Below are positions 6,513-38,106 of a stretch of 42,768 bases of DNA, one piece after another. Origin of the DNA: Myxococcota bacterium (GTDB lineage Bacteria; Myxococcota_A; Polyangia; Polyangiales; Houyiibacteriaceae); NCBI GenBank assembly GCA_039814655.1, contig JBCCAW010000002.1, forward strand, positions 1 through 42,768, in the 5' to 3' direction. The position numbers were made by a program, and so were the translations under genes. The notes under the pieces were generated by a model that saw only the letters and a program-made list of their open reading frames with translations, was not told the DNA's origin and did no database searches. The stretch's first letter is position 1, and every line of letters begins with the position of its first letter.

Positions 6513-6518
6513 GGGGTC

Positions 6519-12607: not shown

Positions 12608-12734
12608 GGGCAACCGAAGCGCTCGGCGCGGCGAGCATCGTTGCGTTTTCCGTTACAGGCCGTGCGCGCGGGAGCTTTCCCGGGAAGATCCGGCTCATAA
12701 CGGCGTCCGCGCGGCGCCGCTCTTGTGAGTACCC

Positions 12735-14030
12735 TCAGGCGAGGACGCGGCGGAGCGCCGCTTTCGTCGCGTCGAAGGCCGCCGTTTCGTCGCGGCCCTG
12801 GCGCAAGAACCCCTCGATGGCGTCCAAACGCGCGAGCGCCGCGTCGAGGGCCGGGTCGCTACCGGCGGCGTAGGCACCGAGGGAAACCAGGTCGCGCTTG
12901 GCCTCGTAGGCCGCGAGGTGCGCCCGGAGCGTGGCGGCGTCTGCGAGATGCTCGGCGCTGACGACCTGGTCCATCACGCGCGAGAGGCTCGCCAGCACAT
13001 CCACGGCCGGCCAGCGCCCGCGCGCGCCGAGGGCCCGGTCGAGCACGACGTGCCCGTCGAGAATGCCGCGCACCTCGTCGGCCACGGGCTCCTCCATGTC
13101 GCCGCCTTCGAGGAGCACGGTGTAGAAGGCCGTGATCGACCCCTCCGGGCTCGTGCCGCTCCGCTCGAGGAGCGCCGGCAGCGCGGCGAACACGCTCGGC
13201 GGGTAGCCACGACGCGCCGGAGGCTCCCCGGCGGCCAAGCCCACCTCGCGGCCCGCGCGTGCAAAACGCGTGACGCTGTCCATGAGCAGCACGACGCGCT
13301 TGCCCTGGGCGCGGAAGTACTCGGCGACGCTCGTGGCGACCCAGGCGCTCTTCAAGCGCACCAAGGCCGGCGCGTCGCTCGTGGCGCAGACGACCACGCT
13401 CCGGCGCCGGCCCGCGTCGCCGAGGCTGTCCTCGAGAAACTCCCGCACCTCCCGGCCGCGTTCGCCGATCAGGCACACCACGAACACGTCGGCTTCGGCG
13501 AAGCGCGCGATCTGCCCGAGCAGCGTGCTCTTGCCGACGCCGGAGCCGGCGAAGAGGCCCACGCGCTGCCCCTCACCCACGGTCAGGAGCCCGTCGAGCA
13601 CGCGCACGCCGAGGCTCAGCGGCCGCGTGATCCGCGGGCGCGTGAGCGGCGCCGGGGGCGGGCGCATCACGGGCCACGGGTCCCCTTCGAGGGCCGGGCC
13701 GCCGTCCACGGGCCGGCCGAGGCCGTCGAGCACGCGGCCGAGGAGCGCAGGGGACGCGCGCACGCTTAGCGCCTCCGCCGCCGGGCGCACGGGATCGTCG
13801 GGCCCCAGGCCCTCCGCTTCGCCGAGGGGCAGGAGCAGCACCTCGTCGCCCTCGAAGCCGACCACCTCGGCGCGGAGCGGCGCCGGGCCCGGCCCGACCT
13901 CGACCACCTGGCCCACGCGTCCGCCGGGCAGCACGGCGCGGAGCGCGAGACCGACGAGGGAGGTCACCCGGCCCTGGACCCCGACGGTGCCGACGCCGGA
14001 GAGGCGCCGGCTGAGCGCGTCGGCGTCCAT
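12735..14030 (-). CDS. sctN: Type III secretion ATPase (SctN/YscN/FliI family)
   Basis: 431 aa from ATG 14030. Walker [12 protein letters not shown] and Walker [15 protein letters not shown]. Also [46 protein letters not shown] and [12 protein letters not shown], typical of the FliI/YscN family. The ATG overlaps the dnaJ stop (TGATG). Confidence 0.85.
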
Positions 14031-15136
14031 CAGTCGAAGAGCCGCTTGAGCTTGTCCAGAAAGCCCGCCTGCTGCGGCATGGAGTCCTCGCCGAGCTCCG
14101 CGGCGAGCTCTTCGATGAGCTTGCGCTGCTTCTTCGTCACCTTGGCCGGCACCTCGACCAGAATGGTGACGAGCTGGTCGCCCTTGCCCATGCCGCCGTA
14201 CACGGGGATGCCCTTGCCGCGCAGGCGGAAGACCTTGCCGGACTGGGTGCCCGGCGGGAGCTTCATCTGCACCTTGGCCTCGAGCGTCGGCACCTCGAGC
14301 GTCGCGCCGAGCACCGCCTGCGGGAAGGAGACGGGGACCGTGCAGAGCACGTCGGCCCCCTCCCGGCCAAAGAGCTCGTGGGGCGCGACGCGCACGGTCA
14401 CGTGCAGGTCGCCGGCGCCGGAGGCCGTCGCCTCGCCGGCGCCCCGGAGCGTGCGCACGGCACCATCCTCGACGCCGGCCGGGAGACGTACCTCGAGGCT
14501 CTCGCGCTGGGCGTTGATGCCCCGGCCCTCGCATTGGGCGCAGGGCAGGTGAATCTTGGTGCCCAAGCCGTTGCAGGCGGCGCAGCTCCGGTACCCTCCG
14601 AGGAAGCCGCGCTGCGAGCGCACCTCGCCGCGCCCTTTGCATACCGGGCACTCACTCACCTTGGTACCCGGCGCGGCGCCGCTCCCCTTGCAGGAGACGC
14701 AGGGCGCCGGGCGCTCGATCTCGACGTGTTTGGTGACGCCGAGCGCCGCCTCGACGAAGCTCACCTTGAGCTCGTAGGTCAGGTCCCGGCCGCTCCGGCG
14801 CCGGCGCCGGCCGCCGAAGACCTCGCCGAAGAGCCCATCGAGGATCTCGCCGAGGCCGCCAAGGTCCGCGGGGTCGAAGCCCGCAGACCCATCGCCACCA
14901 AAGGCCGCGTGCCCCAGACGGTCATAGCGGCGTCGCTGCTCCGAGTCGGAGAGCACGCGGTAGGCCTCGCTGGCCTCCTTGAAGGACTCCTCGGCGGCCG
15001 GGTCGCCGGGGTTTCGGTCCGGGTGGAGCTCCCTCGCCAGGCGCCGATAGGCCTTCTTCAGCTCGTCCGGCGGGGCGTCGCGGGGGACGCCGAGAACCTC
15101 GTAATAGTCGCGCTTTGCCACGGAGGCGTGGAGCAT
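14030..15136 (-). CDS. dnaJ: Molecular chaperone DnaJ (type I, with zinc-finger domain)
   Basis: J-domain [38 protein letters not shown] region and four CxxCxGxG repeats ([32 protein letters not shown]). ATG at 15136; the track ORF extends to 15274. Confidence 0.9.
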
Positions 15137-15341
15137 AGCGTCGCCGCGCGGTGGCGCCGCTGCCTTCGCGCCTGCCTGGAAATTTTTTCTCAGCTCCGCA
15201 CCGAGTTCCGCCGCAAGAGGCGCCCCGCCGCTCCAGGGCCGGGGCCCCCGCCGGCGTGAAGGAACCGAAATCATGAATGAAACACGCCACCGCGGCGGTC
15301 CTTGGCGGGGGGAACGGGCCTTGCACGGAGGTCACCTGCCC

Positions 15342-17970: not shown

Positions 17971-17987
17971 TCCCCGGCTTTTTCGTC

Positions 17988-18668: not shown

Positions 18669-18679
18669 GGCGGATTGTC

Positions 18680-21600
18680 ATGAACGGACTCACCCAACAC
18701 ACGACCCGCCTGCTCGCAGCCCTCGGCCTCGCGCTCGCTTCGGCCAGCGTGGCGCCGACGCCGGCGGCGGCGCAGAACGACATCCGGGACATCCCGCCGC
18801 TGGTCACGCTCCTCGTCGACACGTCGAGCTCCATGCAGCGCCTCGGCGCCTGCGAGTGCGACACGTCGACGGATCCGGCGTGCCGGGGCTGCCTCCCGGA
18901 GTGCACCACGGGCACGCCGGAGCGGAACCGCTGGTGGACCGTCGTCGAGGCGCTGACGGGCACCTTCGCCGACTTCAGCTGCTCCGTCGAAGACCGGGAC
19001 GCGCCTTCCTACGCTGGCGAGCCCGACTACACGGACCCGATCCCGCACGTGCGCGCCGGCGGCATCGCGTGCCTGTCGAACTCGGACTGCCCCGGCGCGC
19101 TCACCTGCCTGAGCGACGGCGCAACGCAGGGTCTCTGCCAGGAAGAGGACGGCATTCTGGACATCTACCGCGAGCGCGTTCGCTTCGGGTTCATGACCTT
19201 CGACACCGGGGACACCTTCCTCAGCGGTCCGGGCATCAACATCGAGAACGAGCTCGTGACGCGCGCCCTTTACCAGTCGCGCATCGGCGAAGAGTCCACG
19301 GCCATGGGCACCTACTCCTACGGCGAGGCTCGGCCCTTCAGCTTCCCGGGCTGCGGTGAGCCCTACATGATCAACAACGGCGTCCGGACCTACCGGGCCG
19401 ACGGCGGCTCGCTCATCTCGAGCGGTCGCGAGGGCGTCGACGACCTCGTGACCATCAACCAGCTCATCCAGGAGTCGCTCCTGGACCCCTCGCTGCGCCC
19501 CACGGGGGCGACGCCAGTCGCGGGCATGCTCGAGGACCTCGACTTCTACTTCGACAACGACCCGGACGTGAGCCCCATTCGCGCCGGGACGCTCGGCTCC
19601 GGTGACCCCTTCAACGCCTGCCGCGCGCGCTACGCCATCCTGCTCACGGACGGAGCGCCGAACGCGGACATGCGCGACTCCACGGTCAACTGCGAAGCCA
19701 TGGGCAACGGCGTGGGCGAGCTCGGCTGCCCCTACGACACGCCGGTGAACACGGCGGCGCGCCTCGTCACCGAGGGCGACATCCAGGCGCTCTATGTCGT
19801 GGGCTTCAACGTGACGGCGGACAACTGCCCTTCCGGCGTGGCCGGGGACCGCTGCCGGCAGAACGCCGCGGACGCCATCGCCGAGCTCGATGCCATCGCC
19901 GACGCGGGCAACACGGGCTCGGCGATCTTCGCGGACGACCGGGCGACGCTGATCGCGGCGCTGGCAACCATCATCGACGAGTCGGCCCCGGGCACGACCT
20001 CGCGCACGCAGCCCGCCTTCGCGAACACTGGCTCCTCGACGGGCGCGGTGAACAGGCAGATTCAGCTCAACACGGGCTTCAACGTGTCCCGGGAGGCCGG
20101 CGAGCCCTGGACCGGCGTGCTCGAGCGGCGCCGCTTCGAGTGCGACGGGCTCACCGTGGAAGAGCAGCCCGTGCTTCCCACGGACCGCTTCCAGAACGTG
20201 TTGAACGCACAGACCGGCGCGCCGGGATCGGGCTCCGAACCGCGCCGCCTGCTGACCGTCGTGGCGCCCACGCTGCCGCCCTTCCTCGACTTCTACGGCG
20301 ACGGGCAGGCCGATCTCCAGGCGCGCTCCCCGACGCCGCCGCTCCCGCCGACGGGGCTGCCGACCAACGCGCTTCAGGTCGGGCTCGATCTGCAGGCCTT
20401 CGGGCTGAGCAACCCGGCGCTGACGCCGGAGGTGCTGGGCCTGGACGACCCGCTGCTCTCCGGGGCCGAGCAGCTGCTGGCGCTGCAGAACACCTTCGAG
20501 TGGATGCAGGGCCTCGCGGGGACCGCGCGTGACGGGCGACGGCTCGGCTCCATCGTGCATTCGTCGCCGGTGGTCGTCGGGCCCCCGAGCCTCGACATCG
20601 CCGACGAGGACTACAACCTCTTCCGCGAGCGCGTGGGCGAGCGGCCCACGGTGACCTATGTGGGCACCAACGACGGGCTAATGCACGCCTTCCTCACGGA
20701 GGACTACGAGGTGCCGGCCACGGACCCGGACTTCGCGGGCCTGAACATCACCGCGGGAACGGAGCTCTGGGGCTTCGTGCCGCCGGTGCTGCTGCGTCAG
20801 CTCCCGGACGTGCAGGACGCGCCGCGGGCCATGGTGGACGCCACGCCGGTCGTCCGCGACGTCTTCGACGCGCGGCTCCTCGGGCAGATCGCCTCCGGCG
20901 ACGCCTACCGCACGGTCATGGTCTCGGGCCTCCGGGCCGGCGCCCCGGCCTTCTTCGCCCTCGACGTCACGGACCCCTTCCGGCCCGAGTTCCTCTGGCA
21001 GTACACGGACCCGGGCATGCTCGGGGAGACCTACGGGGAGCCCACGCTGGCGCAGGTGCGCGTCGAGTTCGGGAGCGTGACCCACGAGCGCGGCATCGCG
21101 ATTCTCCCGGGCGGAAAGGGCACCCAGGACCTGACGCTCGGCGGCGTCGACCTGGACGGCGACGGCACGCCGGAGACCTCCCCGGCGTGCTCCGTTCCGG
21201 CGAACGCCGTGGGCCTCACGCCGGAGCGCGGGGAGGCCGGGCGCACCGACCGCCGCTGCTGGATGCCCGACGAGGGCCGGGCGCTGGTCATCCTGGACCT
21301 GGCCACCGGCGCCGTCCTCCGCTCCTGGGATGCCGCGACCTTCCCGGCGCCCCTCGCCGGCGGCGTCTCCGCCTTCCCCGGCGACACGGGCAACATCGCC
21401 ACGCGCGCCTTCGTGACCGACGAGGACGGCGTCATCTGGCGCATCGACCTGTCCGAACCGGACCCGGACGACTGGGAGGTCTCGGCCTTCTACGACATGT
21501 TCCATGGCCTGGGCTACGCGGCGGGTCAGCCGGCCTTCGGCCCGCCGGTGCTCAGCACCGACGAGGACGGCAACGTGGTCATCCTTCACGGCACCGGTGA

Positions 21601-22240
21601 CATCGACCGCCTCGAGAACCCGGGCGTTCGGAACCGCATCGTGTCCTTGACGGAGCAGATCACCTTCGACGACGCGACGGGGGCGGTGACGGATGTGGGC
21701 GCGCGCCTCAACTGGGAGATCACCCTGGACGAGGGCGAGCTCGTGACCGGGCCCCTGGAGCTCTTCAACGGGGAGGTCTTCTTCGGCACCTTCACGAGCA
21801 CCACGGACATCACCAACGCCTGCGAGTTCGGCTTCAGCCGCATCTGGGGCGTGCAGTATATCGAGAGCGAGCCGGCCGTGAGCACGGACCCGGCGCCGGC
21901 CCTCGAGTCCACGCCGGGGTCGGGCATCCAGGACGTGACGAACCTCGGCCCCGGCGACTCGCCGGGCCTCGACAACCGGCTCGTGCTCGGTGTGTCGGTC
22001 ACCGAGCGGCCCAACTGCGCGCTCCGCGACGAGGTCAGCGAAACGGACCCCTACATCGGCACACGACAGACCGTGCGTATGCGGCAGGTCGCGCCGCCGA
22101 CCTTCGAGCTCGTGGCTCAGCTCTCCGGCGGTCCCGGCGGGGGCGGTGCCGGCGGGGGCTCGGTGCAGGAGTTCAACCGTGAGCTGCCGCCGCCGGTCGG
22201 GTACACGACGCAACGCGCGCTCCTCGGCATCGTCGACTGA
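18680..22240 (+). CDS. pilY1: PilY1-like type IV pilus tip adhesin with N-terminal vWA domain
   Basis: 1186 aa. Signal peptide ..ASASVAPTPAAAQ. MIDAS DxSxS motif (LLVDTSSSM, D-T-S-S-S at 18818-18832). C-terminal beta-propeller-like region with a Ca-binding-like loop DLDGDGTPE (21149-21175). Position after the pilVWX-like genes supports the call. Confidence 0.8.
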   Translation: MNGLTQHTTRLLAALGLALASASVAPTPAAAQNDIRDIPPLVTLLVDTSSSMQRLGACECDTSTDPACRGCLPECTTGTPERNRWWTVVEALTGTFADFSCSVEDRDAPSYAGEPDYTDPIPHVRAGGIACLSNSDCPGALTCLSDGATQGLCQEEDGILDIYRERVRFGFMTFDTGDTFLSGPGINIENELVTRALYQSRIGEESTAMGTYSYGEARPFSFPGCGEPYMINNGVRTYRADGGSLISSGREGVDDLVTINQLIQESLLDPSLRPTGATPVAGMLEDLDFYFDNDPDVSPIRAGTLGSGDPFNACRARYAILLTDGAPNADMRDSTVNCEAMGNGVGELGCPYDTPVNTAARLVTEGDIQALYVVGFNVTADNCPSGVAGDRCRQNAADAIAELDAIADAGNTGSAIFADDRATLIAALATIIDESAPGTTSRTQPAFANTGSSTGAVNRQIQLNTGFNVSREAGEPWTGVLERRRFECDGLTVEEQPVLPTDRFQNVLNAQTGAPGSGSEPRRLLTVVAPTLPPFLDFYGDGQADLQARSPTPPLPPTGLPTNALQVGLDLQAFGLSNPALTPEVLGLDDPLLSGAEQLLALQNTFEWMQGLAGTARDGRRLGSIVHSSPVVVGPPSLDIADEDYNLFRERVGERPTVTYVGTNDGLMHAFLTEDYEVPATDPDFAGLNITAGTELWGFVPPVLLRQLPDVQDAPRAMVDATPVVRDVFDARLLGQIASGDAYRTVMVSGLRAGAPAFFALDVTDPFRPEFLWQYTDPGMLGETYGEPTLAQVRVEFGSVTHERGIAILPGGKGTQDLTLGGVDLDGDGTPETSPACSVPANAVGLTPERGEAGRTDRRCWMPDEGRALVILDLATGAVLRSWDAATFPAPLAGGVSAFPGDTGNIATRAFVTDEDGVIWRIDLSEPDPDDWEVSAFYDMFHGLGYAAGQPAFGPPVLSTDEDGNVVILHGTGDIDRLENPGVRNRIVSLTEQITFDDATGAVTDVGARLNWEITLDEGELVTGPLELFNGEVFFGTFTSTTDITNACEFGFSRIWGVQYIESEPAVSTDPAPALESTPGSGIQDVTNLGPGDSPGLDNRLVLGVSVTERPNCALRDEVSETDPYIGTRQTVRMRQVAPPTFELVAQLSGGPGGGGAGGGSVQEFNRELPPPVGYTTQRALLGIVD

Positions 22241-22277
22241 GGTCGACTCCGCGCGCGCCGCAGCGCATGCTCGATGC

Positions 22278-22826
22278 GTGCGTGGAGTCATCTCGCCCCT
22301 CGGAGGCGGCAGCGGCCTGGCGGCCCTGCTGCTCGTGGTGACGGCCTGCGGCGGCGACGCGGTGGTGACGCCTCGGCCGCCGCCGGCTCCCGTGGTCGAA
22401 GCGGCTCCCGAACCGGGTCCGCGCGCGCCCAGCGCCGATGCGCTCTACGACGCGGAGGGCGCACTCCTCGAGAGCGAAGAGATCATCGCGGGCCTCACGC
22501 TGCCGCGCGGGCTCACGCTCCTCGCCCAGCGCGAGAGGCACCACAGCTTCGAGTCCCGGGTGCCCCGGCCCAAGCTCGTCGCCTACTTCGGGCCCCGGCT
22601 CTTCACCGGCGCCGTGGAGCCGCTCGCCGACGGCGCCATCTACCGCGCCGCCATCCCGCGCGGCGTGCGCGAGGACCAGGCGGTCAAGCTCGACGTGTCC
22701 ATCGTGCCGGCCTCGAACGGCCGGACACGCGTGGAGATTCACGCCATCCCGCCGCTGCCGGCCGATGGCGTGACCACGGAGGAGCGGCTTCGGCGCTACC
22801 GCGAGAAGCTCCGCTACGACCCGTGA
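22278..22826 (+). CDS. Lipoprotein of unknown function
   Basis: GTG 22278 gives VRGVISPLGGGSGLAALLLVVTACGGD (lipobox VTAC). It lies 38 nt after pilY1, and its stop overlaps the recF start (GTGA). Confidence 0.5.
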   Translation: MRGVISPLGGGSGLAALLLVVTACGGDAVVTPRPPPAPVVEAAPEPGPRAPSADALYDAEGALLESEEIIAGLTLPRGLTLLAQRERHHSFESRVPRPKLVAYFGPRLFTGAVEPLADGAIYRAAIPRGVREDQAVKLDVSIVPASNGRTRVEIHAIPPLPADGVTTEERLRRYREKLRYDP

Positions 22827-23935
22827 GCGCGACGCCGCTCCGCATCGAGGGGGTTCAGCTTCGCGGCTGGCGAAACCTGGCCCCGACGACGCTCCGGCCG
22901 GGCCCGGCGTTCAACGTGGTCCATGGCGACAACGGGGCCGGCAAGTCGAACCTGCTCGAGGCCCTGGCCTACCTCGGCGCGCTGAAGAGCTTCCGCGGCG
23001 CGCGCACGGACGACCTCATCGGCCTCGGCCACGACGCGGCCGCCGTGGAGGCCAAGGTGAGCGGCGAGGCTGCGCCGCGGCGCTTCCGGCTGGCCCTCGG
23101 GCGCGGCGTACCGCGGCGGCTCCAGCTCGATGGCAAGCGTCCCCGGGCCCTCGGCGCCTGGCACCAGGCGCTCCAGCTCGTGCTCTTTCACCCCGGCGAC
23201 CTGGAGCTCGCGGCCGGTCCGGCGGAGCCGCGACGCGCCTTCCTCGACCGCATTCTCGAGCAGCTCGACGCTGCCTACGGAAGGGCGCTCCAGAGCTACG
23301 GCAAAGCGCTGCGGAGCCGGAACCGGCTGCTGAAGGACGAGGACGCGGACCCGCGGCAGATTCGCGCCTACGACCAGGTGCTCGCCCAGGCCGGGGCCAT
23401 CGTGGGGCAGGCGCGCGCCGCCATGGTGGACGACCTGGCCCCGCGGGCCGAGAAGGCCTTCCGCGAGGTGGCCGGCGAGGTGCTGCCGCTCCGCGTGCGC
23501 TACGCGCCCAAGGTCCCGCCGGAGCCGGAGGCCATTCGCGACGCGCTGGCCCGGGACTTCGCCAAGGACCGCGCCCGGGGCTTCACCGGCGCGGGACCGC
23601 ATGGCGACGAGCTGGCCCTCGAGGTCCGCGCGGGCATCGGCGACGCGACGCAGACCGCGCGGCACCACGCCTCCCAGGGCCAGCAGCGGGCGCTCGTGCT
23701 GGCCCTGAAGGTCGCCGAACTACAGCTGCTGACGGCGCGCACGGGCCGCGTGCCCGTGCTGCTCCTCGACGACGTGTCGAGCGAGCTCGACCGCTCGCGC
23801 AACCGGCGCTTCTTCGCGCTGCTGCGCACGCTCGGCGGCCAGGTCTTCCTGAGCACCACGCACCCGGAGTTCATCCTCCTCGAGGACGACCGCGTGGACT
23901 TTCACGTCGAGGCCGGGAGCATCACGCGGGCATAG
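22823..23935 (+). CDS. recF: DNA replication and repair protein RecF
   Basis: [14 protein letters not shown], Walker [15 protein letters not shown], signature [16 protein letters not shown], and Walker [15 protein letters not shown]. 370 aa from GTG 22823. Confidence 0.85.
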
Positions 23936-26514: not shown

Positions 26515-27543
26515 TTAGCTCGAGCGGACGGCCAAGCGGTCGGCCACGGCCTTCAGCAGGGTCACACCCTCCGCCGAAAAGGGCGCGCCCTCGAGGGCGC
26601 CGTGGGCCGCGGCGAGGAGCGTCTTCAGCCGCGCCTCGACGTTGGCCTTGGCGCCGCTCGAGACGAGGAGCGCCGAGGCGGCTTCGAGGGCCGGCTCGGA
26701 GCGATCCTGTCCGCCGATGACCTGGTCGAGGGCGTCGCGCTGGCCCGCCGGGAGCAGGCGCTCGGCCTCGGCGACGAGACAGGTGCGCTTGCCGTTGCGG
26801 AGGTCGTTGCCGGGCTTTCCCGTGGCGCCCTGGTCGCCGAAGGTGCCGAGCAGATCGTCGGCGAGCTGAAAGGCCTCGCCGAGGGGGTTTCCGTAGGCGA
26901 GGAACGCCGCCATGGCCTCGGCGCTCGCGTCGCCGAGCAGACCGCCGAGGCGCAGGGGCCCGCGCACCGTGTAGGAGCCGGTCTTCAGGTCGTGCATGCG
27001 CGAGACGTCGGGGTTGGCCGTGAGATCGAGGTGATGGCCGAGGATGACTTCCTTCTGGATGCGGAGGAACGCCTCCATGGCCTCGCCGCGCCGGGCGGCG
27101 GGGAAGGGCGCCTCGACGAAGAGCTCGAAGGCGTAGGCGCTGCCGATGTCGCCGGCGAGAATGGCGAGGCTGTCGGCGAGGTGGCCTTCGTGGCGGTCGC
27201 GGAAGGCCGCGTGCACCGCGGGGCCGCCGCGGCGCTCGTCGTCCTGGTCCATCCAGTCGTCGTGGATCAGTAGGTAGCTCTGGAGCAGCTCGAGGGCTGC
27301 GCCGGCGCTCACGGTGTCGCTCAGCGGGCGCTCCGGGGCGACGCACGCCGTGGCCGCCGCGAGCACGACGGGGCGGAAGCGCTTGCCGCCGCGAAGCGTG
27401 AGGTCGCGAATTCCCTCGACGAGCTCGACGCTCTCCGGGGAGATGGCCGTGGCTTCGGCCACCTTGAGCTCGAAGTAGGCGGCAAGCTTCGCGTCCACGA
27501 GGTCGCGAACGCGGGGGAGAAAGTCGGCGAGGGTCTCGGACAT
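26515..27543 (-). CDS. Polyprenyl diphosphate synthase (GGPP/FPP synthase family)
   Basis: First Asp-rich motif LLIHDDWMDQDDERRG, second Asp-rich motif FQLADDLLG, and GKRFRP near the N-terminus. Confidence 0.85.
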   Translation of the reverse strand: MSETLADFLPRVRDLVDAKLAAYFELKVAEATAISPESVELVEGIRDLTLRGGKRFRPVVLAAATACVAPERPLSDTVSAGAALELLQSYLLIHDDWMDQDDERRGGPAVHAAFRDRHEGHLADSLAILAGDIGSAYAFELFVEAPFPAARRGEAMEAFLRIQKEVILGHHLDLTANPDVSRMHDLKTGSYTVRGPLRLGGLLGDASAEAMAAFLAYGNPLGEAFQLADDLLGTFGDQGATGKPGNDLRNGKRTCLVAEAERLLPAGQRDALDQVIGGQDRSEPALEAASALLVSSGAKANVEARLKTLLAAAHGALEGAPFSAEGVTLLKAVADRLAVRSS

Positions 27544-27791
27544 GGGGCGCTCCGGGGCGGCGCGAGGGCAGGCCTGGGGCCGGGCAGGCGAGCTGCGGCG
27601 CGCGAGGCGCGGGCGTAGCCTTCGACGTGCCCGTGGGCAAGGGCGCTTCGGCCCCTGCGGCTCGCGACCGCGGGAGCGCAGCTCGGCCCGCGCTCGTCAC
27701 GGTCCGGCGGGGCGCCGCTTGCGTCACACCGCCGGCTGGTGGACGTCATCGTGCGGCCCCACGGTCCCCTCCCATGAGCCGCGGAGACACC

Positions 27792-28862
27792 ATGAGCAGC
27801 GAAGCGTCCAACGTCCTCGACATCGGCCAGCGCAAGGCCGACCACCTCGACCTCTGCGCCACCGACGCCGTGGCCTTCAAGAAGGTGACGACGCTCCTCG
27901 AGGAGGTGCGGCTGGTGCATCAGTCGCTTCCGGACCTCGACGTCGATAGCGTGGACCTGTCGACGACGCTGCTCGGCAAGACGCTCCGGGCGCCCATCGT
28001 CATCGCGGCCATGACCGGCGGCCACGAGCGGGCGGCGGAGGTGAACCACACGCTTGCCTCCATCGCGAACGACCGGGGCTACGGCTTCGGCCTCGGGTCC
28101 CAGCGAGCCATGCAGAAGCGTCCCGACACGGCCTGGACCTTCCAGGTGCGGGAGAAGGCGCCGGACGTGCTGCTGATGGGCAACGTGGGCGTGGTGCAGG
28201 CGCGGGACATGGACGTGGAGATCATCGCGACGATGATCGAGCAGGTCGGGGCCGACGCGCTCTGCGTGCACCTGAACCCGGCCATGGAGCTCGTGCAGCC
28301 CGGCGGCGACCGGGACTTCACGCGGGGCACGGAGACCATCGCGCGCCTCGTGAAGGCGCTGCCCGTGCCCGTGGTGGGCAAGGAGACGGGCAACGGCATC
28401 AGCGTGGAGACGGCGCGGAAGCTCCGCGACGCGGGCGTCAGCACCGTGGACACGAGCGGCGCCGGCGGCACGAGCTGGGTGGGTGTGGAGACGCTCCGGG
28501 CCGAGGGCGATCAGAAGACGCTGGGCGAGATGCTCTGGGATTGGGGCGTGCCGACGGCGGCGAGCGTGCACAACGTGGTGCGCTGCGGCATGCACGCCAT
28601 CGCGACCGGCGGCATGAAGAACGGCTACGACGTGGCTCGGGCCATCGCGCTCGGCGCGAGCGCCGGGGGATTCGCGCGGCAGGTGTTCCAGGCCTTCGTG
28701 AGTGGCGGCCGCGACGGCGCCGAGGCCTTCTTGAACCGGGTGGAGAACGAACTCCGGGCGGTGATGCTCCTGAGCGGAGCGCAGACCGTGGACGAGCTCC
28801 GCCGCGCCCCGCGCATGATCGGCCCCCAGCTCCGCGAATGGATGACCCTCACCGACCGCTGA
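27792..28862 (+). CDS. fni: Type 2 isopentenyl-diphosphate delta-isomerase (FMN-dependent)
   Basis: QRKADHLDLC, AAMTGG, VGKETGNGIS and DTSGAGGTSW match IDI-2 signatures. ATG 27792 has GGAG 5 nt upstream; an alternative ATG is at 27774. Confidence 0.85.
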   Translation: MSSEASNVLDIGQRKADHLDLCATDAVAFKKVTTLLEEVRLVHQSLPDLDVDSVDLSTTLLGKTLRAPIVIAAMTGGHERAAEVNHTLASIANDRGYGFGLGSQRAMQKRPDTAWTFQVREKAPDVLLMGNVGVVQARDMDVEIIATMIEQVGADALCVHLNPAMELVQPGGDRDFTRGTETIARLVKALPVPVVGKETGNGISVETARKLRDAGVSTVDTSGAGGTSWVGVETLRAEGDQKTLGEMLWDWGVPTAASVHNVVRCGMHAIATGGMKNGYDVARAIALGASAGGFARQVFQAFVSGGRDGAEAFLNRVENELRAVMLLSGAQTVDELRRAPRMIGPQLREWMTLTDR

Positions 28863-28869
28863 GCGCTGA

Positions 28870-28960
28870 GGGGACGGACCCGACCAACCGAACAAACGCC
28901 CCCAAAACCCGTGTGGTTTCAAGCCCGCATCGGGGACGGACCCGACTAACCGAACCAAGG
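28870..28960 (+). repeat. Left arm of a roughly 91-nt inverted repeat flanking sctS, with two direct copies of a 27-nt core
   Basis: Core GGGGACGGACCCGACYAACCGAAC occurs at 28870 and 28932. The whole arm matches the reverse complement of 29279-29370 along most of its length, apart from a divergent central segment. Confidence 0.85.
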
Positions 28961-28989
28961 CCCCGGGCCCCGGCACCCGCGGGCCCTGG

Positions 28990-28995
28990 TACGCT
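28990..28995 (+). promoter_or_regulatory. -10-like hexamer TACGCT, 6 nt upstream of the sctS ATG (candidate leaderless promoter)
   Basis: Reads GGTACGCT-TCCCCC-ATG. This fits TAnnnT with no SD. It lies between the left repeat arm and sctS. Confidence 0.3.
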
Positions 28996-29001
28996 TCCCC
29001 C

Positions 29002-29271
29002 ATGAACGGGGCGGAGCTCGGGAGGCTGGCGGCGGAAGCCCTGTACCTGGTGCTGCTCGTCTCGGCCCCGGCTCTGCTCGTGAGCCTCGCCGTCGGCCTG
29101 AGCGTCGGACTTCTCCAGGCCGTGACCCAGGTGCAGGAGCAGACGCTGAGCTTCGTGCCGAAGCTCGCAGGCGTCGCCATCGCGCTCGTCGTGGGCGGCG
29201 GCTGGATGGGCGCGCAGCTGATTCGCTTCACGTCGCGGCTCTGGGAGAGCCTGCCGCTGCTCTTCCCATGA
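29002..29271 (+). CDS. sctS: Type III secretion export-gate protein SctS (FliQ/YscS family)
   Basis: 89 aa. LLVSAPALLVSLAVGLSVGLLQAVTQVQEQTLSFVPKLAGVAIAL is an almost textbook FliQ/YscS core (QA.TQ.QEQTL.FVPK). Confidence 0.9.
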   Translation: MNGAELGRLAAEALYLVLLVSAPALLVSLAVGLSVGLLQAVTQVQEQTLSFVPKLAGVAIALVVGGGWMGAQLIRFTSRLWESLPLLFP

Positions 29272-29278
29272 TCGCGCG

Positions 29279-29370
29279 CTTGGTTCGCTTAGTCGGGTCC
29301 GTCCCCGCTGCGGGGCCCGAGATGATTGGGGTTTCGGGGGCGGTTGGTTCGGTTAGTCGGGTCCGTCCCC
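29279..29370 (-). repeat. Right arm of the inverted repeat flanking sctS (two copies of the core in reverse orientation)
   Basis: GTCGGGTCCGTCCCC occurs at 29291-29305 and 29356-29370. The arm lies wholly within the 117-nt sctS-sctT spacer. Confidence 0.85.
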
Positions 29371-29388
29371 TTGCTTGAGGCGGTGTTG

Positions 29389-30174
29389 ATGGTGCTGGGG
29401 CTCGAGGATGGGCGGGTCCTTTCCCTCGGGGCGCTCACGGCGGCACGCGTGGCGCCGCTCACCGTCGTCGCGCCCTGGCTCATGGTGCGCGACGCGCCGG
29501 CCCTGGTGCGGAGCGGCGTCATTTTGGCGCTCACCGTCGCCTTCGCGCCCTTGGCCTTCGCCTCGGCGCCGGCGACGCTCCAGGTGCCCTTCGTCGTCGC
29601 GCTGGTTCGCGAAGGCCTCATCGGCACCTGCTTTGCCTTCGCGACGGCGCTGCCCTTCTACGCCTTCGATTTCGCCGGCCGCCTCGTCGACACCTGGCGC
29701 GGCGCCGGCCTCGCCGAGGTCATCGCGCCCCCGACGGGCGAACGCACGAGCCCCCTCGGCGACCTCCAGCTCCTCGCCGCCGTCGCGCTCTTCGCCACGC
29801 TCGGAGGCCACCGCCTCGCGCTCCTGGCCTTCGCCGAAGGCCTGACCATCGCGCCCGTCGGCGCCACGCCCCTCGCCGGAGGGACCGCGAGCGTGGCCCT
29901 CGGCGCCGCCGCGCTCTCGGGAGCCGCGCTGGCGTTCGCCGCCGCCGTTGCCGCGCCCGCCGCCGCCGCCATCGTGCTCGTGGAAGCGAGCCTCGGCCTC
30001 GTCGCCCGGGCCACTCCGCAGATTCCCGTCTTCTTCGCCGGCATGCCGCTCCGCGCCGCCGCGGGTCTCCTGGGCGCGCTACTCGCCGCCGCCGCCCTCG
30101 GCGACACGCTCGCGCCAGCCCTCGCCGAAGGGCTGCGCACGGCGACCGATTGGTTGCGGGCCTTTGCTCGCTGA
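29389..30174 (+). CDS. sctT: Type III secretion export-gate protein SctT (FliR/YscT family)
   Basis: 261 aa from ATG 29389 (the track ORF starts at 29326 inside the repeat). Polytopic membrane protein. LVREGLIGTCFAF..FDFAGRLVD and LVEASLGLVARATPQIPVFFAGMPLRAAAGLL match FliR/YscT blocks (..R..PQ.n.F..g.P.k). Position after sctS supports the call. Confidence 0.8.
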   Translation: MVLGLEDGRVLSLGALTAARVAPLTVVAPWLMVRDAPALVRSGVILALTVAFAPLAFASAPATLQVPFVVALVREGLIGTCFAFATALPFYAFDFAGRLVDTWRGAGLAEVIAPPTGERTSPLGDLQLLAAVALFATLGGHRLALLAFAEGLTIAPVGATPLAGGTASVALGAAALSGAALAFAAAVAAPAAAAIVLVEASLGLVARATPQIPVFFAGMPLRAAAGLLGALLAAAALGDTLAPALAEGLRTATDWLRAFAR

Positions 30175-30216: not shown

Positions 30217-30774
30217 ATGGCCCGCATCGAGACGCTCATCGACGAGACCACCCTTCGTCACCGGGTCCAGCAGCTGGGCACGCAGATCACCGAAGACCAC
30301 GCCGAGCTCGAAAGCGAGCTCATGGTGGTGCCCGTGCTCACCGGGAGCTTCATCTTCGCGGCGGATCTGGTGCGCCACATCGACCTGCCGCTCTCCGTGG
30401 ACTTCCTCGGGCTCCGCTCCTACGTGGGCACGAGGTCGAGCGGCATCGTCGAGATCACCAAGGACCTCACGCGGAGCCTCACGGGCCGCCACGTGCTCAT
30501 CGTGGAGGACATCGTCGATACGGGGCTCACCATGCGCTACCTCCTCGAGAACCTCCGCACGCGACAGCCCGCCTCGGTCAAGCTCGCGTCGCTGCTGCAC
30601 AAGCCGGCGCGCACGGAGGTCGCCGTGGACATCGATTACCTCGGCTTCACCATCGAAGACGTCTTCGTCGTCGGCTACGGCCTCGACTTCGACCAGCGCT
30701 TTCGAAACCTCCCCTTCCTCGGCCTCGCGCATCCCGACGAAGCCCCCGGCGCCGCCCCCGAGTCCACGACGTGA
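30217..30774 (+). CDS. hpt: Hypoxanthine-guanine phosphoribosyltransferase
   Basis: [17 protein letters not shown]-binding motif [14 protein letters not shown], and [20 protein letters not shown] 30217. Confidence 0.88.
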
Positions 30775-31091
30775 GCGACAAGAACCAAAAGCGCCTCGCC
30801 ATGCTCGAGGCGATGATCGCCAAGGGCACGGACGACCCCTTCGTGCACTACGCCCGCGCCATGGCCCTGCGCGGGCTCGACCGCCGCGAGGACGCCCTGG
30901 CCGCCTTTGCCGACGTCGAGACGCGCTTCCCCGGCTACGTGCCCACCTACCTCATGGCCGGGCAGGTCGCCGGCGAGCTCGAACGCGAAGACGACGCACG
31001 GGCCTGGTTCGAGCGCGGCCTCGCTAAGGCCCGGGACGCCGGCGACGGTCACGCCGAGGGCGAGCTCGAGGCCGCCCTCGCCGAGCTCTGA
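30771..31091 (+). CDS. Small TPR-like repeat protein (106 aa)
   Basis: GTG 30771 overlaps the hpt stop (GTGA). Helical-repeat composition: [54 protein letters not shown]. Confidence 0.45.
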
Positions 31092-35254: not shown

Positions 35255-35677
35255 GGCTCTCCGCGCCGTCCGGCAGCGCACCGCCGGGACCCGGCTTCGT
35301 GACGCCATATGACCCTACGTTGGGCGTCATGCGGAGCCTTGCGCGCATCATGCCGGCTGCGGTACTTCGCTCGGAGCCCGTTTCCTGGTCCTGGGGAAGA
35401 CTCCTGTGGGCGCGGAGGGGGCTTTTCCTGGGGAGTTTCGATCCCCAGACTGCCCCGTGGTTCTTCCCGTCCCGAGATCGCCACAAGCCTGAACGATCTC
35501 ATCCGCTTGGCTTCCAAACCCCCCAATCCACAGCCCTTAAGACGAAGACGAGAGAGACCTTAACCCTCTAATTCTCTCCCCTTCCGACTCGCTCTCCGCA
35601 CCGGGCGCTCGCGGGGGCCACCGCGCCTTCGCTTCCCTTCACGCTTCGCTCACGACTCCCCCTGCATCGAGGTACCG

Positions 35678-36811
35678 ATGGAGCTCTCCATCCCCAAGCG
35701 CGAGCTCTTCCGCGGTCTCCAGCGCACGCATGGCGTGGCGGACCGGAAGAGCTCCATGCCGATCCTCTCCAACGTGCTCCTCACCACGGAGGGGCAGGAC
35801 ACGCTCCGGCTGGCGGCCACGGACCTCTACCTCGGCGTGACGAGCACCGTCGCGGCCTCGGTGACGCAGCCGGGCAGCATCGCCCTGGCCGCGCGCACGC
35901 TCTACGACATCGTGCGCGCGCTGCCCGAAGGCCAGGTGACCCTCGAGGTCGGGCAGAACCAGGCCGTCGCGATCCGCTCGGGGCGCATTCGCTACAGCAT
36001 TCCCGGGCTGCCCGGCGAGGATTTCCCGCCGCTCCCGCATCCCGGTGAAGCGACGCTTCAGCCCCTCGGCGCCGCGGCCCTGCACGAGCTCATCGCGCTC
36101 ACGAGCTACTCGATGTCGACGGACGACACGCGGCCGCACCTCGCGGGAACGCTCTTCGAGGGGGACGGTCCGCTGCTCCGCATGGTGACCACGGACGGGC
36201 ACCGGCTGAGCAAGGCCGAGTCCGCCACCGAGGGCGCCGAGCTCGCCTTCAAGATGCTCGTGCCCCACAAGGGCATCAGCGAGCTCAAGAAGCTCCTCGA
36301 CGACCTCAAGGGCGCCAAGACACCGGAGGGGCCCGCGAAGGTCGAGGTGGGCACGGACGCCGCCGGCAACGCCTTCTTCCGGAGCCCGGACGTGCTGCTC
36401 AGCGTGAAGCTCGCGGACGAGCAGTTCCCGCCCTACGACAAGGTCATCCCGCAGCAGCAGGACAAGCGCGTCATCGCCGACCGCTCGCGGCTGGTGGATT
36501 CGCTCAAGCGCATCTCGCTCGTGACGAGCGACAAGAGCGGCGGCGGCGTGCAGCTCCAGATCGAAGACGGCCTGGTGCGCATCAAGAGCCAGAACCCGGA
36601 CGTGGGCGAAGGCATCGAGGAGGTCGAGGTCGACTACGCCGGGGAGGGCGTGACCATCGGCTTCAACGCCAAGTACCTCCTCGACGCGCTCGGTGCGCTG
36701 CCCCAGGACGAGGTGGCCCTCGAGCTCAGCGGGACCCTGGACCCCGGCGTCGTGAAGCCCGTCGGCGAAGGCGCGGACTTCGTGGGCGTCATCATGCCCA
36801 TGCGCATCTGA
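35678..36811 (+). CDS. dnaN: DNA polymerase III beta subunit (sliding clamp)
   Basis: MELSIPKRELFRGLQRTHGVADRKSSMPILSNVLLTTEG..LRLAATDLYLG, plus MSTDDTRPHLAGTLFE and C-terminal DFVGVIMPMRI. GAGG SD 8 nt upstream. Confidence 0.9.
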   Translation: MELSIPKRELFRGLQRTHGVADRKSSMPILSNVLLTTEGQDTLRLAATDLYLGVTSTVAASVTQPGSIALAARTLYDIVRALPEGQVTLEVGQNQAVAIRSGRIRYSIPGLPGEDFPPLPHPGEATLQPLGAAALHELIALTSYSMSTDDTRPHLAGTLFEGDGPLLRMVTTDGHRLSKAESATEGAELAFKMLVPHKGISELKKLLDDLKGAKTPEGPAKVEVGTDAAGNAFFRSPDVLLSVKLADEQFPPYDKVIPQQQDKRVIADRSRLVDSLKRISLVTSDKSGGGVQLQIEDGLVRIKSQNPDVGEGIEEVEVDYAGEGVTIGFNAKYLLDALGALPQDEVALELSGTLDPGVVKPVGEGADFVGVIMPMRI

Positions 36812-37074: not shown

Positions 37075-37164
37075 GGTGCCACGGGGGGCCGTCCAGCGGC
37101 CTTCCGGTCAGGCTCACGGTGCCTCCCGTCGCCCGCGCACGCGCGTGTGCTAGGACCCGGCGCC

Positions 37165-38106
37165 ATGAGCGGTTTCGTCGGGCGGGGCCGAGGCAAGGTC
37201 ATCCTCCTCGGCGAGCACAGCGTGGTCTACGGCCGGCCGGCGCTGGCCGCGGGCCTCGAGCGTGGGGTGCAAGCGAGGGTCCGCGCTGCCGACGCCGACG
37301 CCATGCAGCTTTCGCCGTGGGAGGTGCGCGTCACGCCGGCGCAAGGAGACGAGCCCCTCGGCCAGGCGCTCGCGGCGGCGCTCGCCCTCTACGCCGAGCG
37401 CAGCACCGGGGCCGCCGTGCAGGTCCAGGTGGGGCTCCCCGGTGGCGCCGGCCTCGGCTGCTCTGCGGCCATCGGCGTGGCGGTGATCGAAGCGCTCGAC
37501 GGCCTCTACGGCGTGCCACGAACGCCGGCGGAGCGGGGTGACGCCTCCCTCGCCTGGGAGAAGGTCTTCCACGGCTCGCCCTCCGGCGTGGACAACGCCG
37601 TTGCCGCCGTGGGCGGCGTGGTGCGCTTCGTGCGCGGCCAAGGCGTGAGGCCCGTGGCCTTCGGCCGGCCCTTGCCCCTCGTGGTGGCCCACAGCGGCAT
37701 CGCCTCGAGCACCAAGGTCGTCGTCGATGGCGTACGCGAGCGCTGGACCGCGAACCGGCCGGCCATGGAGCGGATCTTCGACGCCATCGCCGGCCTCGTC
37801 GACCGGGCGGAGACGGCGCTCGCGGCCGGCGAGCTCGACGTGCTGGGCGGGCTCATGAACGACAACCAGCGCGAGCTCGAAGCCATGGGCGTGAGCACGC
37901 CGGCGCTCGAGGCGCTGGTGGCCGAGGCCCGGGCCGCCGGCGCCCTTGGGGCGAAGCTGACCGGGGCCGGCGGCGGCGGCTGCATGGTGGCGCTCGCTCC
38001 CGACTCAGCCACCGCCGCGCGCATCGAGGCGCGGCTGGCCGCGCGGGCGTCGATGACCTTCACCACCACCGTTGGCGGCGACGCCGACGCGGGAGACGAC
38101 ACGTGA
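37165..38106 (+). CDS. mvk: Mevalonate kinase
   Basis: GKVILLGEHSVVYGRPALA, GHMP motif GLPGGAGLGCSAAIGVA, and KLTGAGGGGCMVAL. ATG 37165. Confidence 0.85.
   Translation: MSGFVGRGRGKVILLGEHSVVYGRPALAAGLERGVQARVRAADADAMQLSPWEVRVTPAQGDEPLGQALAAALALYAERSTGAAVQVQVGLPGGAGLGCSAAIGVAVIEALDGLYGVPRTPAERGDASLAWEKVFHGSPSGVDNAVAAVGGVVRFVRGQGVRPVAFGRPLPLVVAHSGIASSTKVVVDGVRERWTANRPAMERIFDAIAGLVDRAETALAAGELDVLGGLMNDNQRELEAMGVSTPALEALVAEARAAGALGAKLTGAGGGGCMVALAPDSATAARIEARLAARASMTFTTTVGGDADAGDDT

What the first reader, a model, noticed from the sequence alone, without database searches (positions are those of the whole stretch)
29002..30174. sctS-sctT pair without sctR or sctU, wedged between isoprenoid (fni) and purine-salvage (hpt) genes
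In T3SS and flagellar systems the export-gate genes are normally contiguous as sctR-sctS-sctT-sctU (fliPQR-flhB). The products assemble as an R5-S4-T1 complex. Here clear SctS and SctT homologues stand alone. The upstream gene is a type-2 IPP isomerase and the downstream gene is hpt, 42 nt away. No sctR, U, V, J, C, Q or L gene occurs anywhere in the window. Myxobacteria lack flagella, and needle-less T3SS-like systems have been reported in Myxococcus. A dispersed, chlamydia-like layout of core genes among housekeeping operons is unusual.
Basis: partly seen in the sequence, partly recalled or inferred. Interest (0 to 1): 0.68.

Follow-up and report, generated by a model that had tools for sequence, protein, structure and literature searches.

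The report
Dispersed type III secretion genes
Two intact genes for the core channel of a type III secretion machine sit alone between housekeeping genes because this group of myxobacteria (Polyangiales) keeps the whole machine scattered around the chromosome, and only this one gene pair has stayed together.

Summary
29002-29271 encodes an SctS/FliQ protein and 29371-30174 an SctT/FliR protein. They lie between a type-2 IPP isomerase gene and hpt. No sctR, U, V, J, Q, L or C gene is in the window.

The pair is not decaying. dN/dS against the closest relative is 0.03 (sctS) and 0.17 (sctT). The block sctS-sctT-hpt-small TPR gene recurs in about 35 loci from Polyangiales/Sandaracinaceae genomes. 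The fni neighbour occurs only in the window's own lineage.

In a complete 9.07-Mb Polyangiales chromosome with the same pair, sctR is a singleton about 437 kb away. A published table of Polyangiales bins also lists sctU, sctV, sctJ, sctQ and sctL homologues at scattered positions.

Best reading: part of a functional, chromosomally dispersed T3SS related to the Myxococcus needle-less systems. sctS-sctT is the one adjacency that has been kept. This is a new variant of a known kind.

Separately, two inverted copies of a roughly 100-nt element bracket sctS and end at the sctT start codon. Their role is unexplained.

The parts
29002..29271 (+). sctS (FliQ/SctS family), 89 aa, export-gate subunit
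   Evidence: PF01313 at E 1.4e-28. TIGR01403 SctS scores 89.6 bits, above the 76.5 cut-off. phmmer matches FliQ/SpaQ chains of solved complexes at 1e-16 to 1e-13, and the motif LLQAVTQVQEQTLSFVPKL is intact. dN/dS is 0.03 against L006.
29371..30174 (+). sctT (FliR/SctT family), 267 aa from TTG 29371. Alternative starts are TTG 29326 and ATG 29389.
   Evidence: PF01311 at E 4.3e-39. FliR 6s3r_F matches at 1.7e-17 over residues 22-264. The AlphaFold model matches FliR/SctT chains with TM 0.52-0.73. The start was set by alignment with L006 and with 25 homologues. dN/dS is 0.17. NCBIfam equivalog cut-offs are not reached (109.5 against 163).
12735..14030 (-). sctN, FliI/YscN-family T3SS ATPase, 431 aa. 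Its ATG overlaps the dnaJ stop codon by 1 nt (TGATG).
   Evidence: Walker A motif found by the scan. TIGR01026 fliI_yscN scores 548 bits (cut-off 379.5) and TIGR02546 SctN scores 574 bits (cut-off 604.75). PDB T3SS ATPases match at up to 3e-125. The overlap was read. Orthologues are 69-92% identical and include one in Sandaracinus amylolyticus.
14030..15274 (-). dnaJ (J domain, CXXCXGXG domain and C-terminal domain), directly upstream of sctN on the same strand
   Evidence: Pfam DnaJ, DnaJ_CXXCXGXG and DnaJ_C. Junction sequence read.
28864..28965 (+). Upstream copy of a roughly 100-nt element between the fni stop and sctS. It has two GGGGACGGACCCGAC boxes 62 nt apart.
   Evidence: Repeat families D3, I1 and I2. 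The 24-nt core occurs 4 times in the window against 0 expected. It is homologous to the L006 copies.
29276..29371 (-). Downstream copy of the same element in inverted orientation. It fills the sctS-sctT spacer and ends at the sctT start codon.
   Evidence: The RNA fold of 28860-29385 pairs the two copies into a long duplex enclosing sctS: MFE -331 kcal/mol against -259 for shuffles, z -10.2. The duplex is weaker in L006, z -4.3.
27792..28862 (+). fni, type-2 isopentenyl-diphosphate isomerase (upstream neighbour, specific to this lineage)
   Evidence: TIGR02151 at E 8e-112, 373 bits against a cut-off of 281. It lies next to sctS only in the window and in L006.
30217..30774 (+). hpt, hypoxanthine phosphoribosyltransferase (conserved neighbour)
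   Evidence: TIGR01203 scores 189 bits against a cut-off of 150. The 42-nt gap was read. It is linked to sctS-sctT in about 35 loci.
30771..31091 (+). Small TPR protein, 106 aa. Its start overlaps the hpt stop (ATGA). It always travels with hpt.
   Evidence: Synteny. TPR families in all 20 members scanned. Best solved relatives are the small TPR proteins 3ma5 and 2kcl at 1.8e-16. There is only a weak, sub-threshold SctY hit (22.5 bits against 70).

Best explanation
The two ORFs encode the SctS and SctT subunits of a type III secretion export gate. The gate belongs to a T3SS whose genes are dispersed around the chromosome in this branch of the Myxococcota (Polyangiales/Sandaracinaceae). SctS and SctT would assemble in the inner membrane with an SctR encoded elsewhere, as in the solved R5-S4-T1 complexes. 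Export would be energised by the SctN ATPase, which is encoded 15 kb away behind dnaJ. Shown here: the family membership and fold of both proteins; purifying selection on both; deep conservation of the sctS-sctT adjacency and of its linkage to hpt; a conserved sctN in the same contig; and a singleton sctR on the same chromosome as the pair in a relative. Inferred: that the window's own genome has sctR, sctU and sctV; that the proteins assemble into one machine; and that the machine resembles the needle-less T3SS* that Myxococcus xanthus uses in prey lysis. One further inference: sctS-sctT has stayed adjacent while everything else separated because SctT synthesis must be tied to SctS synthesis, as was shown for Salmonella.
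For: Family and fold. Selection: dN/dS against L006 is 0.03 for sctS and 0.17 for sctT, compared with 0.09 for hpt. SctS is 62-98% identical across the clade, more conserved than Hpt. Synteny: sctS-sctT, with hpt-TPR beside them or within about 4 kb, occurs in about 35 independent loci. It extends to relatives scoring only 187-292 bits against the clade profile. In none of about a dozen of these loci with gene calls does any other T3SS Pfam family lie within +-10 kb. Other components: sctN is in the window. Its 90% orthologue is on a contig of 54,224 bases, the same length as the contig that carries the sctS-sctT pair of L006, so it is taken to be the same contig. S. amylolyticus has a 72% orthologue. 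An isolated sctR lies beside hom on a 71% GC contig. It has 120 listed relatives at 64-100% identity, and those with organism names are Sandaracinaceae, Sandaracinus or Polyangiaceae LLY-WYZ-15. That last label also carries the sctS-sctT locus L015 and an SctN. Relative P0416 lies at about 915.6-916.4 kb of a 9,074,070-bp chromosome, among mreBC, ECF sigma factor and ion-channel genes. The sctS-sctT pair of that chromosome (L010) is at about 477.8-478.9 kb. Literature: Table S5 of PMC11821767 lists adjacent sctS/sctT in Polyangiales bins of families SG8-38 and Ga0077539. In those bins sctR, U, V, N, L, J, Q and D homologues sit at unrelated locus-tag numbers. PMC11509652 counts sctR and sctV among the genes common to Polyangia. 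bioRxiv 10.64898/2026.02.19.706803 shows that sctS-sctT translational coupling limits SctT in Salmonella.
Against: The window is a complete 42.8-kb contig, so sctR, U, V, J and Q were not seen in this genome itself. sctU, sctV, sctJ and sctQ in the clade rest on a published homology table with loose thresholds, not on tests made here. The match between the ENA contig and OZ245758.1 rests on identical length. SctT and SctN fall below the NCBIfam equivalog cut-offs for both the flagellar and the injectisome models, so the subtype is undetermined. In the window sctS and sctT are about 100 nt apart, not tightly coupled. No conserved local hairpin was found at the junction in nine loci. Some Polyangiales bins in the published table also have a contiguous cluster, so these genes could be a second set.
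Confidence: 0.72

Rival explanations
1. The pair is a decaying remnant or paralogue of a T3SS or flagellar operon, left behind after the rest was lost, and has no function.
For: The pair is isolated from all other export-gate genes. SctT scores below the NCBIfam equivalog cut-offs. M. xanthus T3SS loci were once annotated as relics (PMC3459982).
Against: dN/dS is 0.03 and 0.17, like the housekeeping gene hpt. Both reading frames are intact in about 35 lineages that differ by up to 55% in SctT. The conserved SctS motif and the FliR fold are kept. The partner genes sctN and sctR are also conserved in the clade.
Confidence: 0.04
2. SctS and SctT form an autonomous membrane module that works without the rest of a T3SS. 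An example would be a small channel built from SctT (structurally an SctR-SctS fusion) and SctS, perhaps tied functionally to hpt and the TPR protein.
For: The linkage to hpt-TPR is very old and nearly universal, and persists even where hpt-TPR has been inverted relative to sctS (L010, L012, L014). No other T3SS gene lies within +-10 kb in about a dozen relatives with gene calls.
Against: sctR and sctN orthologues are conserved at 64-92% identity in the same clade. sctR is on the same chromosome as the pair in one relative, and sctN is on the window's own contig. The TPR family's nearest solved relatives are generic small TPR proteins, not T3SS chaperones. hpt is an ordinary purine-salvage enzyme. 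The divergent orientation in three loci argues against obligatory co-transcription.
Confidence: 0.08
3. The dispersed genes are a second, accessory set, and the genome also carries a complete contiguous Myxo-type T3SS cluster that does the main work.
For: In Table S5 of PMC11821767 some Polyangiales bins (F1_Cluster.31_sub, E1_bin.389, E1_bin.123) show a contiguous L-N-Q-R-S-T-U-V run together with extra isolated copies. Contiguous Myxo-type clusters exist (L040).
Against: Other bins in that table (E1_bin338, H1_Bin.72_sub, E1_bin041) show only one copy of each gene, all scattered. This cannot be tested for the window's genome. It does not conflict with the dispersed set being functional.
Confidence: 0.2

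Closest known systems
Myxococcus xanthus needle-less T3SS* (MXAN_2434-2464) and T3SS(2) (MXAN_5643-5654), the 'Myxo' NF-T3SS group of Abby and Rocha 2012
   Same: Same phylum, and the organisms are non-flagellate. The SctN, R, S and T proteins are homologous. The published table scores the Polyangiales SctS/SctT as hits to these M. xanthus genes. Both are conserved under selection although first regarded as relics.
   Different: The Myxococcus systems are contiguous clusters of 12-30 genes and were described only in Cystobacterineae. Here the genes are singletons or a pair among housekeeping genes in Polyangiales. Absence of a needle or secretin was not tested here.
Scattered NF-T3SS of Chlamydiales (also Hamiltonella defensa and plasmid pYPTS01)
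   Same: Core genes of one machine are spread over several chromosomal loci. Abby and Rocha link this to constitutive expression.
   Different: In Chlamydia the core genes lie in three loci. To my knowledge those loci are multi-gene blocks that keep sctR-S-T together; this was not checked here. In the Polyangiales case sctR is separated from sctS-sctT by hundreds of kb, and sctN stands alone behind dnaJ.
Solved export-gate complexes FliP5Q4R1 and SctR5S4T1 (PDB 6f2d, 6s3r, 6r6b, 6pem)
   Same: There is full-length sequence and predicted-fold similarity of both proteins to the S and T chains.
   Different: Identity is only 20-26% for SctT. Assembly and stoichiometry were not tested. The genes for the solved complexes are contiguous.
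sctS-sctT translational coupling in Salmonella SPI-1 (bioRxiv 10.64898/2026.02.19.706803)
   Same: S-then-T order and adjacency are preserved. In the window sctT uses a weak TTG start, and the region upstream of its start is predicted to be base-paired.
   Different: The Salmonella hairpin lies inside the end of sctS. Here the spacer is about 100 nt and the predicted pairing is long-range, with a copy upstream of sctS. No conserved local hairpin was seen across relatives. The layout 'R ... ST ... U' is not among that study's synteny classes.

Membership tests
SctS/FliQ (PF01313, TIGR01403/TIGR01402) | Profile score above the curated cut-off | tested here: met
   PF01313 scores 99.1 bits (cut-off 25). 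TIGR01403 scores 89.6 (76.5). TIGR01402 scores 91.4 (88.9).
SctS/FliQ (PF01313, TIGR01403/TIGR01402) | Protein of about 85-90 aa with the conserved loop motif (Q-x-x-T-Q-[LIV]-x-E-x-T-L-x-F-x-P-K) | tested here: met
   89 aa. LLQAVTQVQEQTLSFVPKL aligns with FliQ and SpaQ of solved complexes.
SctT/FliR (PF01311, TIGR01401/TIGR01400) | Pfam family score above the gathering threshold | tested here: met
   PF01311 scores 134.9 bits (cut-off 27.8) and covers profile positions 5-223 of 230.
SctT/FliR (PF01311, TIGR01401/TIGR01400) | NCBIfam equivalog score for SctT or for FliR | tested here: not met
   TIGR01401 scores 109.5 (cut-off 163.05) and TIGR01400 scores 112.3 (168.6). It is a divergent member that cannot be assigned to either the injectisome or the flagellar subtype.
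SctT/FliR (PF01311, TIGR01401/TIGR01400) | FliR/SctT fold | tested here: met
   AlphaFold model with pLDDT 79.1 and pTM 0.70. Its 13 best PDB matches are all FliR/SpaR/Spa29 chains, TM 0.52-0.73.
Type III secretion system (core set as used by Abby and Rocha / TXSScan) | T3SS ATPase SctN present | tested here: met
   Window 12735-14030 (-). TIGR01026 scores 548 bits (cut-off 379.5).
Type III secretion system (core set as used by Abby and Rocha / TXSScan) | SctR present in the same genome | tested here: inconclusive
   Not in the window, and the rest of the source genome is unavailable. It is present as a singleton on the chromosome of a relative that carries the same pair.
Type III secretion system (core set as used by Abby and Rocha / TXSScan) | SctU, SctV, SctJ and SctQ present | not tested
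The only evidence is the published homologue table for Polyangiales bins and a statement that sctV is common in Polyangia.
Type III secretion system (core set as used by Abby and Rocha / TXSScan) | Core genes co-localised in one locus | tested here: not met
   sctN lies 15 kb from sctS-sctT with unrelated genes between them. sctR lies about 437 kb away in a relative. No other T3SS gene lies within +-10 kb in about a dozen relatives with gene calls.
Injectisome (contact-dependent NF-T3SS) | Secretin SctC, needle SctF and translocon | not testable with these tools
   None is in the window. The whole genome is not available.
Bacterial flagellum | Flagellum-specific genes (flgBC, fliE, fliG, motAB, flagellin) near the export genes | tested here: not met
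   No such Pfam family was found in any window ORF or in the gene calls of the relatives' loci.
Class II/TPR T3SS chaperone (for the small TPR gene after hpt) | Profile or structural relatedness to LcrH/SycD/SctY-type chaperones | tested here: not met
   The SctY model scores 22.5 bits against a cut-off of 70. The family profile's best solved relatives are the generic small TPR proteins 3ma5 and 2kcl, and no T3SS chaperone is among the 60 listed.

The most novel reading that the evidence does not exclude
Polyangiales carry an ancient T3SS that has been fully broken up into singletons and wired into housekeeping operons: dnaJ-sctN with overlapping stop and start codons, sctS-sctT beside hpt, and sctR alone. 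It would then be expressed constitutively as a general envelope or export device rather than as an inducible weapon. Within it, sctS-sctT would be the one indivisible unit because SctT output must be set by SctS translation. In the window's lineage this control would have been rebuilt as a roughly 100-bp long-range RNA duplex (or an invertible DNA segment) that brackets sctS and masks the weak TTG start of sctT.
Probability: 0.2. Interest if true: 0.75.

Novelty: new variant of a known kind. Interest (0 to 1): 0.55.

Why it matters
T3SS export-gate genes are among the most strictly syntenic genes known. sctRSTU is contiguous in 87% of 1,152 reference genomes. Scattered systems have been described essentially only for Chlamydiales and a few other cases. 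In a large, free-living clade the machine has been taken apart gene by gene, yet every piece seen stays under purifying selection. That makes it a natural experiment on which adjacencies are needed for assembly. Here only S-T survived, which fits the recent experimental claim that SctT synthesis must be coupled to SctS synthesis. The result also extends Myxo-type T3SS beyond the Cystobacterineae, where they were described. It further shows that cluster-based detectors will score these genomes as lacking a T3SS. The cultured relative Sandaracinus amylolyticus has the sctN orthologue, which makes genetic tests feasible.

Tried and rejected
1. Small TPR gene after hpt as a T3SS chaperone. There is only a weak SctY hit. 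The family profile points to generic small TPR proteins. Rejected.
2. A conserved local hairpin at the end of sctS masking the sctT start, as in Salmonella. Folds of nine junctions are no better than shuffles. Not supported, although the window's long-range pairing is strong.
3. A known RNA family in the sctS flanks or anywhere in the window. Rfam gave nothing.
4. A recombinase next to the inverted repeats. No such Pfam family is in the window.
5. Looking for sctR, U and V in the roughly 40 loci around sctS-sctT by motif and tblastn. None was found.
6. Walking outwards from SctT to reach a contiguous cluster. The relatives at 292 and 187 bits still had the isolated pair. Only a 37% GC genome at 158 bits had a full cluster. 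Its SctR was judged too distant to use as the query in the last protein search.
Only the closest relative's contig (54,224) matched.
8. The two proteins of about 880-900 aa, and the MshEN-response-regulator and Zn-ribbon-GYF genes, that flank the pair in many relatives. They are absent from the window, so they are not needed next to the pair.
9. The supplement of PMC10196010 held no per-gene T3SS table.
Full report
**What is at the coordinates.** The window is 72% GC. The ORF 29002-29271 (+) encodes an 89-aa protein. It matches Pfam Bac_export_3 at E 1.4e-28 and passes the NCBIfam cut-offs for both FliQ and SctS. The next ORF, ending at 30174, matches Bac_export_1 at E 4.3e-39. It stays below the equivalog cut-offs of both the FliR and the SctT models.

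Against solved structures, the first protein aligns end to end with FliQ and SpaQ. Its hallmark loop LLQAVTQVQEQTLSFVPKL is intact. The second aligns with FliR and SpaR over about 240 residues. An AlphaFold model of it (pLDDT 79, pTM 0.70) has FliR, SpaR or Spa29 chains of export-gate complexes as its 13 best PDB matches, with TM 0.52-0.73.

The upstream gene is a type-2 IPP isomerase and the downstream gene is hpt. The hpt ATG is 42 nt after the sctT stop. Alignment with the closest relative and with 25 homologues places the sctT start at TTG 29371.

**The rest of the window.** I translated every ORF with coding-like codon-position GC and scanned them against Pfam. No FliP, FlhB, FHIPEP, YscJ, FliM/N, FliH or secretin family appeared. 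A motif scan then found a FliI/YscN-type Walker A box on the minus strand.

The ORF 12735-14030 (-) is a 431-aa T3SS ATPase. TIGR01026 scores 548 bits against a cut-off of 379.5. The SctN equivalog scores 574 against 604.75. PDB T3SS ATPases match at up to 3e-125. Its ATG shares one base with the dnaJ stop codon, reading TGATG.

I also ran all 23 ORFs of a complete T3SS cluster (L040) against the window by tblastn. Only these three genes were hit. So the window holds three T3SS core genes in two places, each embedded among housekeeping genes.

**Relatives, synteny and selection.** A protein search with SctT returned 125 relatives at 43-100% identity (one of them the window's own protein). Every hit that carries an organism name is from Myxococcota, Myxococcales, Deltaproteobacteria or Sandaracinus MAGs. 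A scan of one genome per species found 26 loci, named Polyangiales, Sandaracinus/Sandaracinaceae, Polyangiaceae or more broadly Myxococcota or Deltaproteobacteria. One of them is a complete 9.07-Mb chromosome.

In about 35 independent loci sctS is directly followed by sctT. In all but a few of these, most of which are too short to show it, hpt and a roughly 105-aa TPR gene lie beside the pair or within about 4 kb (gene calls). In three loci hpt-TPR is inverted and lies upstream, but is still adjacent. The same layout holds in much more distant relatives found by an exhaustive profile search.

In none of about a dozen loci with gene calls is another T3SS family present within 10 kb. The fni neighbour occurs only in the window and its 87% relative L006. 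Most other loci instead have MshEN-response-regulator and Zn-ribbon-GYF genes upstream, and two unknown proteins of about 880-900 aa downstream. None of these is in the window.

dN/dS against L006 is 0.03 for sctS, 0.17 for sctT and 0.09 for hpt. SctS is more conserved across the clade than Hpt. These genes are not decaying.

**Where the missing genes are.** SctN of the window has orthologues at 69-92% identity. One is on a contig of 54,224 bases, the same length as the L006 contig, so it is taken to be the same contig. Another is in the cultured Sandaracinus amylolyticus.

To find an sctR of this lineage I scanned metagenome contigs for a high-GC coding version of the PFK(L/M)xLFV motif. Of 120 loci, 119 held a FliP/SctR gene. 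Most had sctS downstream. L066 (71% GC) instead had an sctR standing alone beside a homoserine dehydrogenase gene.

Searching with that protein gave 120 listed FliP-family relatives at 64-100% identity. Those with organism names are Sandaracinaceae, Sandaracinus sp., Polyangiaceae LLY-WYZ-15 and Myxococcota. The LLY-WYZ-15 label also carries an sctS-sctT-hpt locus (L015) and an SctN.

One hit, P0416, lies on a 9,074,070-bp contig. That is the length of chromosome OZ245758.1, which holds the sctS-sctT locus L010 at about 477.8-478.9 kb. Its position is about 915.6-916.4 kb. It sits among mreB, mreC, ECF sigma factor and ion-channel genes, with no other T3SS family within 10 kb. In that relative, therefore, sctR and sctS-sctT are about 437 kb apart.

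A published table of M. xanthus T3SS homologues in 46 activated-sludge Myxococcota bins points the same way. In Polyangiales bins of families SG8-38 and Ga0077539, sctS and sctT have consecutive locus tags. The sctR, U, V, N, L, J, Q and D homologues have unrelated tags. Other Polyangiales bins show a contiguous run instead (PMC11821767 Table S5). The authors did not comment on the layout.

**How it most likely works.** By homology to the solved complexes, SctS and SctT would join an SctR pentamer in the inner membrane. This forms the helical export gate onto which SctU and SctV dock. SctN supplies the ATPase. This assembly is inferred, not shown.

A 2026 preprint reports that sctRSTU is contiguous in 87% of 1,152 genomes. 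It also reports that in Salmonella a hairpin at the end of sctS blocks independent sctT translation, which prevents excess SctT from forming futile multimers. That offers a reason why S-T is the only adjacency kept here. In most relatives the S-T gap is 3-29 nt, or the genes overlap. It is 90-100 nt in the window's lineage and about 400 nt in one distant lineage. I did not find a conserved local hairpin, so coupling remains an inference.

**An unexpected feature inside the finding.** In the window a roughly 100-nt element lies between the fni stop and sctS (28864-28965). A second copy, in inverted orientation, fills the sctS-sctT spacer (29276-29371) and ends at the sctT TTG. Its 24-nt core occurs four times in the window, all here, against zero expected.

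Folded as RNA, the two copies pair into a long duplex that encloses the whole sctS ORF (z -10.2). L006 has homologous but more diverged copies and a weaker predicted duplex (z -4.3). More distant relatives lack the element. It matches no Rfam family, and no recombinase gene is in the window.

The element could limit or time sctT translation, mark an RNase III processing site, or be the ends of an invertible segment. I cannot tell which.

**Comparison and novelty.** The nearest known systems are the clustered needle-less T3SS* and T3SS(2) of Myxococcus and the scattered T3SS of Chlamydiales. This case combines features of both. It is a Myxococcota T3SS, but in Polyangiales, and it is more finely dispersed than the chlamydial one, with sctR split from sctS-sctT. 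I found no paper that describes this layout. I rate it a new variant of a known kind, of moderate interest.

**Limits.** The window is the whole contig. Completeness, the presence of a needle or secretin, and the possible existence of a second clustered system in this genome therefore remain open.

Noticed in passing
window 28864-28965 and 29276-29371: Two inverted copies of a roughly 100-nt element bracket sctS. Each has two GGGGACGGACCCGAC boxes about 62 nt apart. As RNA the copies are predicted to pair (z -10.2). The 3' copy ends at the TTG start of sctT. The element is partly conserved in the closest relative only, matches no Rfam family, and has no nearby recombinase gene.
   Followed up: partly
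window 12698-15274 (-): dnaJ and sctN overlap by one base (TGATG). A 1,380-aa M36 fungalysin-type metalloprotease with PA and PKD domains starts 37 nt after the sctN stop on the same strand. This could be a single dnaJ-sctN-protease transcript.
   Followed up: partly
window 30771-31091 (+): A small TPR gene overlaps the hpt stop (ATGA) and accompanies hpt in nearly all relatives. Its family resembles the structural-genomics TPR proteins 3ma5 and 2kcl. The weak SctY hit is probably generic TPR similarity.
   Followed up: yes
window 15108-23935 (+): A type IV pilus tip or minor-pilin set (two N-methyl-motif proteins and a 1,290-aa PilY1-like protein) is followed by a RecF/SMC-type ATPase. The same block lies upstream of fni-sctS in L006.
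   Followed up: no
window 3-2247, 26515-28862, 37075-40204: The window is rich in isoprenoid genes: a lycopene cyclase and a Rieske/DUF5914 protein, a polyprenyl synthase divergent from fni, and three GHMP-kinase-type mevalonate-pathway genes (including diphosphomevalonate decarboxylase). dnaN lies at 35564-36811.
   Followed up: no
L001, L003, L005, L035, L036, L041 (about 6 kb upstream and 1-6 kb downstream of sctS-sctT): In most relatives the pair sits in a larger conserved block. Upstream are a sigma-54 activator, a biotin-lipoyl protein, an MshEN-response-regulator-TPR protein and a Zn-ribbon-GYF protein. Downstream of hpt-TPR are two unknown proteins of about 880-900 aa with no Pfam match. 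None of these is in the window.
   Followed up: partly
L007 9479-9703: A Sandaracinus sp. MAG has about 11 tandem copies of a 15-nt unit (CGCGGGGACTCTCGA and a variant) directly upstream of sctS. This is a different repeat from the window's, in the same place.
   Followed up: no
L040 (GCA_040755795.1, 37% GC): A low-GC uncultured bacterium carries a complete contiguous cluster with the M. xanthus T3SS* gene content: needle_F-like, sctJ, fliG-like, sctL, N, O, P, Q, fliO, sctR, S, T, CesT, sctU, DUF1521, a TPR chaperone and sctV. The Myxo-type system may therefore not be confined to high-GC Myxococcota.
   Followed up: no
window 6135-6521 (-): An Xre-like antitoxin (Xre-like HTH plus the MbcA/ParS toxin-binding domain). 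The adjacent ORF was not examined for a toxin.
   Followed up: no
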